Source: Thalia democratica (Eukaryota). Taken from it: 64,000 bases of DNA. The stretch's first letter is position 1. Each line of letters starts with the position of its first letter. Made by a program: the position numbers. The stretch is taken from positions 58,032,001 to 58,096,000 of the forward strand of contig OZ241832.1 in the NCBI GenBank assembly GCA_965202585.1, in the 5' to 3' direction. Positions 21,001 through 48,000 of the stretch are shown in pieces.

Positions 21001-24000
21001 ATGGTTAAACACAAAAAATAGCAAGTTTGGCATCAGAAGTAAACGTTGGAAATTGTTTGATAAAAATCTATCCAGCTGAACAAATCTGATTTAAGATTCA
21101 ATTCATTTTATATTTTAAACTGTAGTTGGGTGTTAGTTTCAAAATAGCTGATTGTTGCTTTCAAACGTTGTAAATAGCATCATGATTAAAACAAAAATTG
21201 AACAAATATTATGAGGATCCTCTTACATAATAAGCTAATAGTTTTAAAATTGGTGGCTGTCGTCTTAAAATTTTATTGTAACTGCAAACACTGTTATATT
21301 TAAATAGATTTGCGATAAAAAAAATATAGAATAATCTTATAAAACACCTGAACTTCATTCATTTTTTATAATTATATAAGTATAATATTATAATTTAAGT
21401 ATTTCAAGTAAAACCAAATAATAAAACCAACCAATTGGACGAATTTTATTAAGCTCATATTATTTTTAACTTTTTTTCACTAAACTTGTTGATTTAAATA
21501 AAAACAAACAATAAAACCAACCAATTGGACAAATCTTATTAGGCTCATAATATTTTCTAATTGTTTTTCACTTAACTTGTTTAATTAAATAAAACCAAAT
21601 AATGAAACCAACCAATTGGACGAATTTTATGAGGCTCATCTTGTTTCTGTTCCACTCGTTTTCCAGTTCGCTCGCGAAGGGGTACTTGCAGCAGGTGAGC
21701 TCCAAAGTGATTTCCATGCATTCGCCGTGCAGGTAGTTGAAATCTTGCATTCCGCCTAAGTGAGCGATTTGGATTTTATTTGTAAAAAAATTATCAAGAA
21801 AAACTTTGAAAGCATGCTTATAGGTCGTTCTGATGTTGCTGCGTCAACAATTTTTTTTTAAGTTTCTCATTTGATTTTTTTTAATTATACCCTTATCCCT
21901 AACCCACATTTCTCCATGCAAGCAGTTAAAGTCTTGCAATCCACTTGAATAAATATTAGTCTTTTATAAAGCAAACTAAATGAGAGACATACTTTGTAAT
22001 TTATTGGGTACTAGTTTTTTAATAAAAATGAGTTTTATTTTCGCACTTCACCCCCCACATATATGTAAGTTTTTCAAAATTTTTAAAACTAAATGAAAAA
22101 TTTGATCAGTGGGATTTTATTTTTTTTAATAGTATTTTTACTTGAACAAATGTTTATTTGATATACTTGAACCTACATAATAAAATGATAAACCATTAAC
22201 TATACCATTATCAAATTTAAAAAAAAGTTGAGAATAAATTTAACTCAAAAAAATTTTTTGAAAGTTAGTAATTATTGAAAATAAAATTGATACCAAAATT
22301 TAATAAATTAAACAAACCAGGAACATTGTACCATTCTGCACCCATTAATGTTATCATTGCCATATTTATAATTGAAACTATTAATTAAAATATTTTTATA
22401 AACAGTAAACAAACCAGGCACGTTGTACCATTCTGCACCATTGGTGATGCCACCATCAAACTGGTCTTCATCGCACTTCCTGTTGTTCAGGTGCATGTCA
22501 CGGTGATTGTTCGAATACGTCGAAGCCATCTCGATGAAGAAATCGTTGTCCGGTGCTATGGAGGCCACTCCTGTTATAATTGTCTTTTATTGAAAAGATG
22601 TCTGTTGTAAGATAATTTGGATCTGTGAATAAACAGTCATCTCCTGTGGTACATTAAGCTTTTTGTGATCAGTGATCTATGATAATTAATTGATATCTAC
22701 ATTGTACATGTATAAGTTTTAGCCCAGCTTTAATATACATAAAACTTGGACCTTCCCATATGTAAATACGTAAATAAAATACTTACCATTTTTTATCTTG
22801 TTTAGTAAAAACTTTTTGAAAACAACTACATTGTATATGTTAAACTTTTAAGCAAGCTGTATCATGATATGTAAAATAAGCTTGGGCTGCCCATACGTAC
22901 ATTAATATCAAACTACTGTGAGTTTAGTTTAGATTATTTTTTATACATCTGCATTGTATATGTAAAAGTAAGTGTTGACCAATTTGTATAATAAAATATA
23001 TAAAATAAAGTTTAACCCAATGTGATTGAGTAATCAATTTACTAACCATATTGTAACATAAAGTAACATGACAAAACCACATAAATACGAACAATTAAAA
23101 CTTTCATCGAATATAAAGTATTCAAGTTACTAACCATACTGTTTGTGGTCGTATTTGGTCAATTTTCTCGAATCAAAAGGATAAGAAGCAACTTCGGAGC
23201 CGGCGTGAAAATTCGCAGATAAAATGAACCTGTACACAAAAGTAATATAATGGTAATGTTTATCATGTTATACAATAAAGTTTATATATACAATGTAAAG
23301 ATTATATGTAGCTTTTAATTGGACATAATAAAAGTGAAAATCAATTTTGCAACACATACTTAAATAAATATTTAAACATCAAAAAGGAGTCTCTACCTAA
23401 TACTATAAAGCTGCTATATTTTGCAACTGACAGCAATTCTAATATTATTTCTAAACTGTCTGTCATCAACAACAAACAAACTTAAAGTTTTTTTTTTGTT
23501 TTTTAGTAAGTATTTAGCTGTACCTTATTTTTGATTTAATGTATAAAATTTATCCCCACAAAAACTATAAATTAGTTACTTAGTTAAACATCAGACAGTT
23601 ATTTTGAGTTTGAACATTTCTGTCTAAAATATCAAACGCCTAAACTAATAAACCATAACTATCAACTTCCTCCTAATGATTTAATGCAAAATTTTTAAAT
23701 ACTAAAAATAATAAATAGAAATTTCACAACTTTCATTAATATTAAAAACGCTTCACTTAAGTATTGATTTAAAATAAAAAATCATCAGTGACTCTATATA
23801 ACTTTTTCGAAACATCAGTTTTAAAACTTGTTGTTTTGTCAACTAAATTCTCAAACTTATCACTCAATACTTATACAAGTTAAGTTGACATCAACATAAT
23901 CGAATTTGTTATTGGTGATCCGATTTTGTTTAAAAACAATAAACAACTATAAATTAAATAACCAAACTTATCAATAAATAAAAATAAATAAACATAATAA

Positions 24001-45000: not shown

Positions 45001-48000
45001 TATGTAAATTTTTATGTTTAATTTCTATTTTATTTTTTTCCTTTTCTATAAAATACTAAACTCTAGCATAAAATATTTGTACATTATGTTGATAAATGAA
45101 AAGAATCACCAATAAATAGTGTTTTAATATTTTATTTTTTACAATTATATGCTTAAGTATTAAGTTTTTTGTTCATATATTGAAGTGTACAAGTATTTGT
45201 TATGAAAAATAGAATATATAGACTATAAGGTTCAATTAAGAATATTAATATTAAACGTTTTGGTTTTAGTAAATATTGCATTTTTCCTTTTAAGAGTGGC
45301 AACGCTGTTAAAACTTTATTATTAACTTTTTCAATTTTTCGTTCAACCTTTTTAATGGGTGGAAAGGGATTTATAAAAAATGTTAGCAATAAATTTTTTT
45401 CGATATCATCAATTTTTTTTTTGTTAAAAACACATTTAAAGTAACTTAATAGTATATATTCAATTTTTTTATACTATACAACATTGTTTCTTACCTTAAA
45501 CTTAATTTTAAACTAAAAATCTACCAACAAAAGTGAACTTTTAAAAACCTTGAAGAAACTTAAAAAACCTGGAGAAAATTGGCCAAAAATACTTGGCAAC
45601 CCTGAACTAGCTATAAAACTTTACCATTGCGCTAAATAGTGTTATAAAAATCAAGTAGTTCTTTTAATAATTACTTCTTAATTTCAACAGATGGAAAGAG
45701 ATTTCAAGCCTTCGTTCACGAGAGAGTACTTCGTTGGTATGCAAATAAAATACATTAAACTACACCACAAGCTAGATAGGCTGAAGAAAATTATTGTAAA
45801 GTACGAAGATGACAATGAGTTCCAGGAATTATCTATTATTTGAAAATTGTGTAAACTGAAACTTTTAAAAATAAGTTGTTGAGTTTTTTCTGATCGTTAG
45901 TGGCTTAAACTTTTGACGTTTTCTAAATATAAGCATTTGATCTAAAACTTGTGTATTACATAAAATAATAAATAATTGTGAAATATGAAGATTACAATGA
46001 ATTCCAAGAATTATCTATTATTTGAAAATTGTGTAAATGTTAAAATTGAAAAATACAATAAAAATTTAAAAGTTAAGTTTGAAAATTGTGTAAACTAATA
46101 CTTTTAAAAATAAGTTGTTGAGTTTTTTTCTGATCGTTAGTGGCTTAAACTTTTGACGTTTTCTAAATATAAGCATTTGTTCTAAAACTTGTGTATTACA
46201 TAAAATAATTGTGAAATATGAAGATTACAATGAATTCCAAGAATTATCTATTATTTGAAAATTGAACTCAATGTTAAAATTGAAAAATACAATAAAAATT
46301 TTAAAGCTAAGTTTTTAAAATATATTTGTGGCTTAAAATTTTGGCGTTTTCTGAATATAAAGACTCGTTCTAAAACTTGTGTACTGTGTAAAAGAGAAGT
46401 TTTAAAATTATTTTCAAAAGGAAGTTTTATAATTAACTTCGCTTTTAATTAAATAGTTATTGTGTTTTGCAAAACGTATGTAAACAAAATTTACTTTGGA
46501 AACAATTAATTGTAACTTACATAGATTTGTCCTCAGCTTTCTGTTCTATAGTAAATTAGTTATCTTTTAGCATTTTAATATTATAAATATTGTTTTGTCT
46601 CTCTAAATTAGGCTAACTTGAGCAAAACTCATGTAAAGTTTAAATGAGTAATATGCTTTGCTTTTTAAAATAAATCCAAGTTATAATATAGAAAATTGTC
46701 ACTTTTAGAAAATGTTTGTTTAAATATAATTTACTTCAGCTTTTGATTTTTTTGCAACATAAATATTGCTTTTGTACTAGCAGAACTTCTAAAAAGTTTA
46801 TTTAAATTTTATAAAGTATAAAAAATTATGTGATTTTTTTTTTGTTTCATTTGAACGTTTTGTTATTTTTGTTTAATTTTTGTTATTTTTATTCACATTG
46901 ATTTTTTAGAAAGCACATAATTATTTATGCATGGAATTTCGCACCATAGTGGTAATACTTAAAAAATGTTTGTTGATTTTTATTAGTAAGTAATCCGCAG
47001 TGCATTATTGTAAACCACTATAGAATTTTGTGAATCAGTTAAACTTTTTCTTTACTTGTTTTTTTGTCTGATTTCGCCTTCAAAGTTTAATTTTATGATG
47101 GTACATGCTAAGATTACTTTTTTATAGTGACATTATTTTTTGGTTGCTTTTTTGTAAGCAACTTTTTTATAGCAAATTTTCATAGAATATTAAGAATAGA
47201 TGAATTCAAGTTTATGCATTGATATGTATTTATACATTGTTTTATACCTCTGGTTAAATTGTTTGTTTGTACTCACTAGAATACTAAGTCATTCTTTTGA
47301 GTTTCCTTAAGGTAAAATTTGAATTAAAATAATTTAAGTTGAACTAATAATTTTTGAGATTAAAGTTTGAACTGTCTTTTTTTTATCTGATTTTAAGTAA
47401 ACCTAGGTGCAAGTGTATTGAAAATGGTTATTAACAACTTGTGTAGCGTTCAAGCAATACATTTTGTTAATTCCTTAATATATTTCATTAATTTAGTAAA
47501 TAAAAATACTTTAGAACAATATACAATTTTTCAATAGTACATTAGCCTCTTTTTAAAGTAAATCTGAGATTACAAAAAAATGTGTTTTTGTTTATTCTAA
47601 ACTGTTAAAAATTATGTTGCGTTTCACAATACTAATAAAACTGAATTTTTTTACAATACCAATAACGTCATGATGAAGTAGAAAGTAAGTATGAGTTAAA
47701 CTAAGTTGTATAAATGATAATTAATTTTTATTTAAAATGGGTTTATTGACTGTTTGAAATGAATATTTTTGAGTAAGTATGAAGTTAAAAAGCTTGTTTT
47801 ATTTAATGAGACAATTTTAATATCTGTGTGTTTTTGAAGAGTTTTCAATTAAAACTTTTAACAAAAATAGCTTGTATTAGTATATTTATTTTAGCCTTCG
47901 TTACTCTTTTATTAACTTCATATAAATGTTTAATTTATTACTTCGGAGTATATTTTTACTTTAATATTTAGAATAGTGATCTTTCAGAATTTTTCAACAC

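What the first reader, a model, noticed from the sequence alone, without database searches (positions are those of the whole stretch)
21424..46258. Echo copies may be fossils of older, AT-richer exon sequence
Exon-to-echo differences are concentrated at third codon positions, mostly exon G/C versus echo A/T. ELL: 4 of 6 third-position G/C changed versus 1 of 9 at positions 1-2. Exon 5 echo: 2 of 4 versus 0 of 8. Exon 6 echoes include CTC to CTA and CTC to TTA (both Leu). The exon 3 donor echo shows no skew (4 of 14 versus 2 of 8). If the echoes simply decayed neutrally, G/C should be lost at all codon positions alike. The skew suggests either that exons gained GC3 after the copies were made or that the copies were briefly coding.
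Basis: partly seen in the sequence, partly recalled or inferred. Interest (0 to 1): 0.66.

Follow-up and report, generated by a model that had tools for sequence, protein, structure and literature searches.

The report
Exon-end echoes record synonymous change
Short dead copies of exon ends lying in nearby introns differ from their living exons mainly at silent codon positions, which fits a silent drift of the exons towards G/C after copying, but proof needs DNA from related species.

Summary
I found 11 exon/echo families in the window. Using the nearest echo of each, exon G/C reads A/T in the echo at 30 of 79 third positions and 10 of 79 first or second positions (Fisher p=0.0004; stratified by family p=0.0008; still present without CpG).

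The echoes are same-strand local duplications of exon ends across splice junctions, in a carboxypeptidase-D-like gene and behind the ELL stop codon. As they stand, none can be read in the exon's frame, so "briefly coding" is not supported.

In the five families with several echoes, changes private to one echo are blind to codon position (8, 11, 7 at positions 1, 2, 3). Differences shared by all echoes of a clade against the exon are 1, 3, 18. The skew therefore sits on the branch that contains the live exon.

The best reading is synonymous change in the live exon plus A/T decay of the echo. The direction implies a net gain of third-position G/C in the exon, from about 0.48 to 0.64.

This is not proven. 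I had no outgroup DNA. The few third-position changes I could polarise fall on the echo. The A/T-to-G/C rate this requires is high. It is a known kind of inference (pseudogene fossils) in a new setting.

The parts
25667..25890 (-). Exon 2 of the carboxypeptidase-D-like gene (Peptidase_M14). Its last 30 nt are echoed.
   Evidence: Pfam; tblastn of P0001; junctions.
25472..25501 (-). Echo of the exon 2 donor end, 195 nt into intron 2. GT is kept. 5 differences, all at third positions; 2 of them are non-synonymous.
24307..24519 (-). Exon 3 (GC3 0.90). It is echoed at both ends.
24204..24251 (-). Exon 3 donor echo 1 (41/48 identical, GT kept).
   Evidence: (D6).
24086..24133 (-). Exon 3 donor echo 2 (36/48 identical; has an in-frame TAG). 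It is a tandem copy of echo 1 with its spacer.
24709..24732 (-). Exon 3 acceptor echo 1. It is part of a 213-nt tandem unit. The acceptor CAG has become CTG.
   Evidence: (D8, D9).
24905..24928 (-). Exon 3 acceptor echo 2 (AG lost).
22415..22570 (-). Exon 5.
22318..22342 (-). Exon 5 donor echo, 97 nt downstream (23/25 identical). The first 9 intron bases are identical.
   Evidence: (D11).
21613..21755 (-). Exon 6. It is echoed at both ends.
21522..21555 (-). Exon 6 donor echo A. It is a 91-nt tandem unit whose intron part is 77/89 identical. Carries CTC to CTA.
   Evidence: (D3).
21432..21465 (-). Exon 6 donor echo B. Carries CTC to TTA.
21196..21224 (-). Older exon 6 donor echo C (GT lost; keeps CTC). 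Weaker match.
   Evidence: D7; score 47.0; null 95th percentile 39, null maximum 49.5.
20595..20623 (-). Older exon 6 donor echo D. It is a copy of C made by a 600-nt intronic duplication.
   Evidence: (D7, D13).
21910..21942 (-). Echo of the start of exon 6, 189 nt upstream. No AG.
45691..45843 (+). Last exon of ELL, with stop TGA at 45841-45843. The frame is supported by a 53-codon open frame and a weak profile match to ELL C-termini.
   Evidence: hhalign E=0.0035. BLASTP and Pfam gave no support.
45970..46025 (+). ELL tail echo 1: the last 17 codons plus the stop. 7 differences: 6 at third positions, all synonymous, and 1 at a first position.
   Evidence: (D4).
46203..46258 (+). ELL tail echo 2. 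It is identical to echo 1 in the coding-derived part and was made by a recent ~239-nt duplication (45839-46080 against 46078-46314, 93%).
7983..8147 (-). Exon d2d (second carboxypeptidase domain).
7507..7913 (-). Array in the intron after d2d. It holds four full copies of the exon's last 21 nt plus donor (7893-7913, 7685-7705, 7625-7645, 7507-7527). Three partial copies lie within and just below this span. There is 1 difference in 84 coding-derived bases.
4305..4342 (-). Echo of bases 9-46 of exon d2f (exon at 4077-4219), 131 nt upstream. AG lost.
11707..11740 (-). Echo of the start of exon d2b (exon at 11183-11369), 371 nt upstream. CAG has become CTG, and it holds a TGA.
12107..12146 (-). 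Echo of the donor end of exon d2a (exon ends at 12347), 240 nt downstream. It has an indel, a TAA, and has lost GT.

Best explanation
The echoes are dead-on-arrival partial copies of exon ends: the exon end, its splice junction and, where still traceable, some adjoining intron. They were made by local same-strand duplication inside a carboxypeptidase-D-like gene and just behind the ELL stop codon.

After copying, two lineages diverge under different rules. The echo is non-coding and drifts without regard to codon position towards the A/T-rich intron composition. The live exon stays under protein-level selection and can change almost only at silent sites.

The third-position concentration is therefore mainly the footprint of synonymous substitutions in the live exon, added to position-blind echo decay. 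The direction goes well beyond what echo decay yields: exon G/C opposite echo A/T is far commoner than the reverse. So the exons' third positions have on balance moved from A/T to G/C since copying, from roughly 0.48 to 0.64 G/C in the echoed stretches. In that limited sense the echoes are fossils of A/T-richer silent sites.

The force acts only on exons, because composition drops sharply at the junctions. That points to a fixation bias on synonymous sites rather than regional biased gene conversion.

Shown here: the copies, their present non-coding state, position-blind echo tips, the skew confined to the exon/stem branch, and rejection of a frozen exon and of a balanced exon.
Inferred: that the unpolarised stem differences lie mostly on the exon side, the size of the GC3 rise, and its cause.
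For: - Pooled skew: G/C to A/T 30/79 against 10/79, all differences 41/123 against 17/247. Stratified by family p=0.0008, and 9 of 10 informative families go the same way.
- The skew is not due to CpG (22/63 against 8/61).
- It is not due to G/C neighbours: 14/35 against 1/18, 15/36 against 6/42, and 1/5 against 3/11 for 0, 1 and 2 G/C neighbours.
- It is not due to C versus G: 16/42 and 17/37 changed at position 3.
- In the five multi-echo families, changes private to one echo are 8, 11, 7 at positions 1, 2, 3, with G/C loss 6/72 against 9/74. Differences shared by an echo clade against the exon are 1, 3, 18, with G/C loss 15/47 against 1/34. Fisher p=0.00018.
- As they stand, no echo can be read in the exon's frame.
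- Position-blind echo-only change predicts 11.8 third-position differences; 41 are seen (p=4.7e-6). A frozen exon is rejected (p=0.00017) and so is an exon with gains equal to losses (likelihood ratio 8.68, p=0.003). Fitted ancestral GC3 is 0.48, present 0.64, echo 0.43.
- Non-coding duplicates in the same window are symmetric: 58 G/C-to-A/T against 60 A/T-to-G/C. The asymmetry is therefore specific to exon-derived third positions.
- Where flanks can be aligned, echo divergence at positions 1-2 is about half the flank divergence, as expected if only the echo changes there: e3 donor 3/32 against 16/71, e6 donor A 2/22 against 9/59, e3 acceptor 2/16 against 34/202.
- The G/C enrichment stops at the junction. 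GC3 is 0.62-0.71, while intron G/C at 7-50 nt from exons is 0.17 and further out 0.22.
- The same logic is established for nuclear copies of mitochondrial genes. There, copy-private substitutions are equal across codon positions and functional-lineage substitutions are biased to position 3 (PMC1790724, passages read).
Against: - No outgroup DNA was available, so the 18 shared third-position differences are unpolarised. The stem branch also contains the echo's early history.
- Every third-position difference I could polarise is a change in the echo. In exon 6 echoes A and B, AAG to AAT is non-synonymous and K is present in 4 of 5 outgroup proteins, and CTC to CTA is opposed by the older echoes C and D, which keep C. 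The 6 non-synonymous third-position differences are also most simply echo changes.
- The fit needs about 30% of present third-position G/C to have been gained, while neutral A/T-to-G/C change on echoes was 2.4%. That is roughly a ten-fold excess and a large bias.
- If third positions simply get double exposure (both lineages change), the excess in size is only marginal (p=0.034).
- Some families show no skew: d2d (0/5 against 0/4), d2b acceptor (4/10 against 4/9), e3 donor (4/15 against 2/8).
- Among nearest echoes, G/C loss is 10/52 at position 1 but 0/27 at position 2 (p=0.013). A position-blind echo does not predict that.
- This is one window with 11 small families, and the models were chosen after seeing the data.
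Confidence: 0.5

Rival explanations
1. Ordinary two-lineage divergence with no change in exon composition. The echo decays towards A/T at all positions. The exon's silent sites turn over at about the neutral rate with gains balancing losses. The extra directional excess is sampling noise and heterogeneity among 11 small families.
For: - With double exposure at third positions, the excess of differences is only marginally significant (41 of 58 against an expected share of 0.582, p=0.034).
- In families with alignable flanks, third-position divergence is near the two-lineage divergence of G/C sites in the flanks: e3 donor 4/15 against 5/16, e6 donor A 4/8 against 4/12.
- Three families show no skew.
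Against: - Balanced gains and losses are rejected (likelihood ratio 8.68, p=0.003). Exon G/C opposite echo A/T is seen 30 times, the reverse 4 times, and echo decay explains about 10.
- 9 of 10 informative families go the same way.
- Non-coding duplicates are symmetric (58 against 60).
Confidence: 0.22
2. Early protection of the echo's first and second codon positions. Either the copy was briefly translated, or there was indirect selection because echo-to-exon gene conversion would carry amino-acid changes into the exon. Third positions decayed freely in the echo, and the protection lapsed later.
For: - The skew is on stems and absent from tips, which also fits an early constrained phase.
- Nearest echoes show the coding-like order position 3 > 1 > 2 (41, 12, 5 differences; G/C loss at position 2 is 0/27).
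- The polarisable stem third-position changes are on the echo side.
- In 6 of 11 families the flanks cannot be aligned significantly although positions 1-2 are well kept.
Against: - Translation in frame is not possible as the echoes stand. Offsets are not multiples of 3 in 10 of 13, there is a stop before the echo junction in 12 of 13, and AG is absent in 0 of 5 kept. The ELL echo lies behind the stop codon.
- Inference: conversion frequent enough to impose selection would also homogenise third positions, yet these differ at 33%.
- Where flanks align, echo divergence at positions 1-2 is at the neutral one-lineage level.
- Unalignable flanks are expected from indels in low-complexity A/T-rich intron.
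Confidence: 0.1
3. A mutational artefact. G/C at former third positions is intrinsically more mutable in the echo than G/C at former first or second positions, through CpG, flanking A/T context or strand asymmetry.
For: - Non-exon CpG observed/expected is 0.66.
- 8 of the 30 third-position G/C losses are at exon CpG sites (30/79 falls to 22/63 when CpG sites are removed).
Against: - The skew survives removal of CpG sites (p=0.006).
- It survives stratification by G/C neighbours.
- C and G behave alike.
- Most directly, on echo-private branches former third-position G/C is lost no faster than the rest (6/72 against 9/74).
- The d2d echoes keep their CpG in 4 of 4 copies.
Confidence: 0.08

Closest known systems
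Nuclear copies of mitochondrial genes and other dead-on-arrival pseudogenes used as molecular fossils (Keller, Bensasson and Nichols 2007, PMC1790724, passages read; Perna and Kocher 1996 and Gojobori, Li and Graur 1982 seen only in its reference list)
   Same: A non-functional copy and a live parent diverge. Substitutions private to copies are equal across codon positions. Those on the functional lineage pile up at third positions. The copy therefore preserves older silent-site states and relaxes towards the local base composition. The split used here (8, 11, 7 against 1, 3, 18) is the same test.
   Different: Here the copies are 19-57-nt pieces of nuclear exon ends lying 90-1019 nt from their parent, in the same intron or 3' flank. 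They are not transferred whole genes. Parent and copy share the same mutational neighbourhood. No independent outgroup was available.
Minisatellite spanning an exon-intron boundary with silent downstream 5' pseudo-sites: human F7 intron 7 (Borensztajn et al. 2006, PMC1557585, abstract read)
   Same: The first repeat unit spans the exon-intron boundary, so the real donor is followed by tandem copies of itself inside the intron. In the paper only the most upstream site is selected. The d2d array (4 full copies) and the 91-nt exon 6 units have this anatomy, and 10 of 13 donor echoes keep GT.
   Different: No RNA data exist here, so which donor is used is inferred only from frame and homology. Spacing here is irregular (60-208 nt between d2d copies). 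Upstream echoes of acceptors also occur, all with the AG lost.
Internal gene duplications and the tandem-duplication model of intron gain (review PMC3443670, passages read; Gao and Lynch 2009 and Hellsten et al. 2011 seen only in its reference list; PMC2791625 is not held)
   Same: Short same-strand duplications inside genes that include exon sequence and splice signals.
   Different: The echoes lie next to the exon they copy, inside introns that are old. The e5|e6 and d2e|d2f junctions have the same position and phase in both carboxypeptidase domains. They did not create these introns.

Membership tests
Local intragenic duplication across an exon-intron junction | The copy is on the same strand, in the same gene, and close to its parent. 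| tested here: met
   all 16 hits with E<=0.002 are on the same strand. The only 2 opposite-strand hits have E=0.046. Offsets are 90-1019 nt.
Local intragenic duplication across an exon-intron junction | The copy runs across the junction into the adjoining intron. | tested here: inconclusive
   Gapped flank alignment against 200 shuffles. Flanks are significant at the floor p=0.005 in 5 of 11 families (e3 donor, e6 donor A, d2d, ELL, e3 acceptor). e6 acceptor has p=0.035. The d2a donor hit at p=0.005 is its own exon-derived block. The rest are not significant. The first 9-14 intron bases are nevertheless kept in the e5 and e3 donor echoes.
Intron gain by tandem duplication of an exon segment | The intron starts with a copy of the next exon's start and ends with a copy of the previous exon's end. 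| tested here: not met
   Donor echoes lie 90-1019 nt behind their own exon, not at the far end of the intron. An apparent copy of the exon 6 start behind exon 5 was not significant.
Intron gain by tandem duplication of an exon segment | The intron is recent (absent at the homologous place elsewhere). | tested here: not met
   The same intron position and phase occur in both carboxypeptidase domains: e5|e6 and d2e|d2f.
Tandemly duplicated alternative (mutually exclusive) exon | A whole exon with both splice sites and an open frame. | tested here: not met
   Echoes cover 19-57 nt of exons that are 143-224 nt long. AG is kept in 0 of 5 acceptor-side echoes. There are stops in echoes 24086-24133, 11707-11740 and 12107-12146.
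Dead-on-arrival copy used as a fossil (Numt-type test) | Substitutions private to copies are equal across codon positions. | tested here: met
   8, 11, 7 at positions 1, 2, 3. G/C loss is 6/72 against 9/74.
Dead-on-arrival copy used as a fossil (Numt-type test) | Substitutions on the functional lineage are concentrated at third positions. | tested here: inconclusive
   The stem branch shows 1, 3, 18. But it joins the exon lineage to the early echo lineage, and no outgroup DNA was available to separate them.
Boundary-spanning minisatellite with silent 5' pseudo-sites (F7 intron 7 type) | Tandem copies of the authentic donor lie downstream of it. | tested here: met
   In d2d, 4 full copies have GTTAGT or GTGAGT. 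In e6, 2 copies have the first 8 intron bases identical.
Boundary-spanning minisatellite with silent 5' pseudo-sites (F7 intron 7 type) | Only the most upstream donor is used. | not testable with these tools
   There are no transcript data for this organism. Use of the upstream site is inferred from frame and from protein P0001.

The most novel reading that the evidence does not exclude
In this A/T-rich arthropod-like genome (non-exon G/C 0.236), exon third positions are being driven from A/T to G/C by a force that acts only on exons and is fast. GC3 in the echoed stretches rose from about 0.48 to 0.64 in the time neutral DNA diverged by roughly 10%. The composition step at the splice junctions is sharp, which argues against regional biased gene conversion and for selection on synonymous sites, whether for exon definition against very A/T-rich introns or for translation. 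The many exon-end echoes would then give a built-in way to date and polarise silent-site evolution genome-wide without an outgroup.
Probability: 0.3. Interest if true: 0.65.

Novelty: new member of a known kind. Interest (0 to 1): 0.45.

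Why it matters
If it holds genome-wide, short intronic copies of exon ends would be in-place witnesses of older silent-site states. They would let one measure how fast, and in which direction, codon third positions move relative to neutral DNA a few hundred bases away. They would also show that the strong G/C contrast between exons and introns in this genome is still being built, not just maintained.

If outgroups put the changes on the echo side, the finding reduces to ordinary A/T decay of dead copies plus an unexplained sparing of first and second positions.

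It must include synonymous change in the live exon.

Tried and rejected
1. A copy of the start of exon 6 ("SFNYKYG", about 22357-22385) between exon 5 and its echo would have suggested duplication of an intron-less junction. It was not significant in the A/T-aware scan. It is better read as the decayed upstream part of the exon 5 echo.

2. "Echoes are exon-only insertions". Ungapped flank windows suggested this, but gapped alignment recovers homologous flanks in 5 of 11 families. I do not claim it.

3. Indirect selection through echo-to-exon gene conversion. I considered this as a cause of coding-like sparing and set it aside by reasoning only: conversion that frequent should also homogenise third positions.

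4. Candidates dropped before counting:
   - a d2c interior match at 9018-9061 (score 44.5, below the null maximum 49.5);
   - an e4 match at 21760-21819 (score equal to the null 95th percentile), both;
   - the 22-nt acceptor echo of d2g, which has too few coding bases;
   - the ELL stop codon;
   - the 9-10-nt indel block of the d2a echo.

5. Organism identification failed:
   - ELL searches found nothing;
   - an exhaustive search found 7 proteins, the best at 48% identity;
   - the look-up of names could not be made;
   - there was no Rfam family or tRNA.
   The closest named carboxypeptidase D is from a bumblebee at 53% over one exon. Nothing in the window looks human.

6. The frame of the ELL tail got no support from BLASTP against P0031 (E=18) or from Pfam. 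A profile comparison gave weak support (E=0.0035).

7. Gao and Lynch 2009 (PMC2791625) is not held.

8. Literature searches turned up no paper that uses intronic exon-end copies to polarise codon third positions. Five word searches cannot show that none exists.

Full report
WHAT IS IN THE WINDOW

The window is very A/T-rich. Two-kb windows have G/C of 0.20-0.44, non-exon G/C is 0.236, and there are no N runs.

On the minus strand lies a multi-domain carboxypeptidase-D-like gene, with Peptidase_M14 and CarboxypepD_reg matches. On the plus strand lies an ELL gene (PF10390, E=1.8e-21).

All protein searches were made exon by exon.

A search with the exon 2 frame returned 25 proteins. The best were an unnamed 446-aa protein, P0001 (94% identical), and P0003 (85%). 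The closest named protein was bumblebee carboxypeptidase D at 53%. Nothing looks human.

tblastn of these proteins, together with GT/AG junctions, gave the exon table.
- e2: 25667-25890
- e3: 24307-24519
- e4: 23135-23229
- e5: 22415-22570
- e6: 21613-21755
- e7: 20197-20366
- second-domain exons d2a to d2g, between about 12530 and 890
- ELL last exon: 45691-45843

The organism could not be named.

THE ECHOES ARE REAL

Direct-repeat and self-alignment searches show short same-strand copies of exon ends in the adjoining intron or 3' flank. So does a search of each exon against its own 2.5-kb neighbourhood (14 exons tested, 7 with hits; 16 same-strand hits at E<=0.002).

An A/T-aware scan with shuffles (16 exons) added echoes of d2a and d2b. 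Two weak candidates were dropped.

In all, 9 of 16 exons tested carry echoes, in 11 families. Four lie outside it: d2a donor, d2b acceptor, d2d donor and the 5' part of d2f.

Local duplications are concentrated at exon junctions. 8 of 18 duplication loci hold a junction, against 2.28 expected on random placement (P=0.0002).

THE OBSERVATION

Taking the nearest echo of each family:
- exon G/C reading A/T in the echo: 30/79 at third positions, 10/79 at positions 1-2 (p=0.0004);
- the reverse class (exon A/T, echo G/C): 4/44 and 4/168;
- differences of any kind: 41/123 and 17/247 (p=2e-10), that is 12, 5 and 41 at positions 1, 2, 3.

The result holds under these checks:
- stratified by family (p=0.0008; 9 families up, 1 down, 1 tie);
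- without CpG sites (22/63 against 8/61);
- within classes of G/C neighbours;
- for C and G separately.

It is not significant in the four families outside the range (8/26 against 5/28). It is absent in d2d and in the d2b acceptor family.

WERE THE COPIES EVER CODING?

Not as they stand:
- 10 of 13 donor echoes lie at an offset that is not a multiple of three.
- In 12 of 13, read-through from the exon meets a stop before the echo junction. The exception (e5) is open but out of frame.
- None of 5 acceptor-side echoes keeps the AG.
- The ELL echo lies behind the stop codon.
- Three echoes carry stop codons in the exon's frame.

The frame of the ELL tail rests on a 53-codon open frame and a weak profile match to the C-terminal helix of three ELL homologues (E=0.0035). 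BLASTP and Pfam gave no support. The large ELL exon ends in phase 2 at 44208, so a middle exon that I did not find must lie before 45691.

WHERE ON THE TREE IS THE SKEW?

Five families have several echoes that are copies of one another. The evidence is shared spacers, shared non-synonymous changes and known secondary duplications. I split their differences by parsimony.

- Changes private to one echo, which are certainly echo changes: 8, 11, 7 at positions 1, 2, 3. G/C loss is 6/72 against 9/74.
- Differences shared by an echo clade against the exon: 1, 3, 18. G/C loss is 15/47 against 1/34.
- The contrast has p=0.00018.

The skew belongs to the one branch that contains the live exon. This is the test used for nuclear copies of mitochondrial genes, where copy-private substitutions are position-blind and functional-lineage substitutions pile up at third positions (PMC1790724, passages read).

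CALIBRATION

Eleven non-coding duplicate pairs in the window differ at 63/372 G/C sites and 109/1133 A/T sites. They are symmetric in direction (58 against 60).

Where echo flanks align, the echoes' divergence at positions 1-2 is about half the flank divergence, as expected if only the echo changes there.

With rates taken from positions 1-2:
- Echo-only change predicts 11.8 third-position differences against 41 seen (p=4.7e-6).
- Doubling the exposure for a second lineage leaves p=0.034.

A four-parameter fit gives echo G/C loss 0.127, echo gain 0.024, a fraction 0.298 of present exon third-position G/C gained since copying, and a fraction 0.079 of present A/T lost. A frozen exon (p=0.00017) and an exon with balanced gains and losses (p=0.003) are both rejected. 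The implied GC3 of the echoed stretches is 0.48 at copying, 0.64 now, and 0.43 in the echoes.

POLARISATION THAT WAS POSSIBLE

Of 17 non-synonymous codon differences, the exon's residue is that of P0001 in 13 and occurs in at least one of five outgroup proteins in 16. The echo's residue equals P0001's in 2. For second-domain exons, P0001 and P0003 align through their first domain only. Amino-acid changes are therefore on the echo side, as expected.

For third positions only a few can be polarised:
- In the e6 A/B clade, AAG to AAT is non-synonymous, so it is an echo change.
- In the same clade, CTC to CTA is opposed by the older echoes C and D, which keep C. The C and D matches are only moderately significant.
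- The 6 non-synonymous third-position differences among 41 are also most simply echo changes.

So part of the third-position signal is certainly echo decay. The synonymous remainder cannot be assigned without outgroup DNA, and no tool here could supply it.

MOST LIKELY MECHANISM

Dead-on-arrival copies decay blind to codon position towards intron composition. The live exon changes only at silent sites. The exon-to-echo comparison sums both.

The size of the third-position excess is roughly what two lineages give.

The enrichment is limited to exons. GC3 is 0.62 near exon edges and 0.71 inside, while intron G/C is 0.17 at 7-50 nt from exons and 0.22 beyond. GC3 ranges from 0.23 to 0.90 among exons of the one gene. 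This argues against regional biased gene conversion and for a fixation bias at synonymous sites (inference).

The weak points are these:
- The implied A/T-to-G/C rate is about ten times the neutral one.
- Among nearest echoes there is no G/C loss at position 2 (0/27, against 10/52 at position 1).
- The sample is small and the models were chosen after seeing the data.

I put this reading at about 0.5. The rivals are ordinary balanced turnover plus noise (0.22), early protection of echo positions 1-2 (0.10) and context-dependent mutability (0.08).

COMPARISON WITH WHAT IS KNOWN

The copies are local intragenic duplications of the kind discussed for intron gain (PMC3443670, passages read). They did not create these introns, which are shared by both carboxypeptidase domains.

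Donor arrays such as the one behind d2d resemble the human F7 intron 7 minisatellite. There the first unit spans the boundary and the downstream pseudo-sites stay silent (PMC1557585, abstract read). That may explain why 10 of 13 donor echoes keep GT while 0 of 5 acceptor echoes keep AG (p=0.0065).

The inference from codon-position patterns is the classical pseudogene or Numt fossil argument. What is new is only the setting: short exon-end copies lying beside their parent.

Insect GC3 is known to vary widely between lineages, for example 12.6% to about 62% (PMC10978632, passages read). A lineage-specific rise is therefore plausible but not shown here. Supplements of these papers were not seen.

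VERDICT

It is a new member of a known kind and of moderate interest.

Noticed in passing
whole window; loci listed: Local same-strand duplications cluster at exon junctions. 8 of 18 loci contain a junction, against 2.28 expected by random placement (P=0.0002). Better survival or detectability of G/C-rich exon-derived cores may contribute.
   Followed up: partly
donor echoes and acceptor echoes listed under parts: Downstream copies of donors keep GT in 10 of 13. Upstream copies of acceptors keep AG in 0 of 5 (Fisher p=0.0065). Two independent acceptor echoes both changed CAG to CTG.
   Followed up: partly
7260-8003, minus strand: The intron behind exon d2d holds four full and three partial copies of the exon's last 21-23 nt plus donor within about 700 nt, at irregular spacing. 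Two copies have GTGAGT, while the real donor is GTTAGT. The coding-derived part is almost unchanged (1 difference in 84 bases).
   Followed up: partly
14 donor sites of the carboxypeptidase gene: Intron position +3 is T in 8 of 14 donors (GTTTGT, GTTAGT, GTTGGT, GTTCGT), A in 5 and G in 1. From memory, animal donors usually have a purine there.
   Followed up: no
exons 890-26944 and 41912-45843: GC3 varies from 0.23 to 0.90 among exons of one gene. Intron G/C right next to exons is only 0.17.
   Followed up: partly
41912-44208 against the carboxypeptidase exons: CpG observed/expected is 0.46 in the large ELL exon, about 0.9-1.2 in most carboxypeptidase exons, and 0.66 in non-exon DNA. This is the kind of split seen where only some gene bodies are methylated (recalled).
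   Followed up: no
41912-45843, plus strand: ELL is very divergent. There are only 7 hits in 1.84 billion representatives, the best at 48% identity over part. The large exon ends in phase 2 at 44208 but the last exon reads in phase 0, so a middle exon was not found. There are four 27-nt coding repeats at 43044-43151.
   Followed up: partly
30894-32030, plus strand: A 378-codon open frame, rich in N, S and L, with 33-nt and 117-nt in-frame tandem repeats and no Pfam match. Its GC3 is only 0.23.
   Followed up: no
about 1060-1100, minus strand: The acceptor of exon d2g is preceded by a 22-nt tandem copy of itself that still ends in CAG followed by the first five exon bases. Use of the upstream AG would shift the frame.
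   Followed up: no
15017-15127 and 17469-17546, minus strand: The C-terminus of P0001 maps to these two small exons between the two carboxypeptidase domains. This suggests a short one-domain isoform with its own terminal exon beside the multi-domain form.
   Followed up: no
8562-8995 and 9034-9477: A 454-nt intronic duplication (79% identical) starts a few bases behind the donor of exon d2c. It was used only as a neutral calibrator.
   Followed up: partly
nearest echoes of all 11 families: Loss of exon G/C in the echo is 10/52 at codon position 1 but 0/27 at position 2 (p=0.013). On echo-private branches positions 1 and 2 show 8 and 11 changes. Unexplained.
   Followed up: partly
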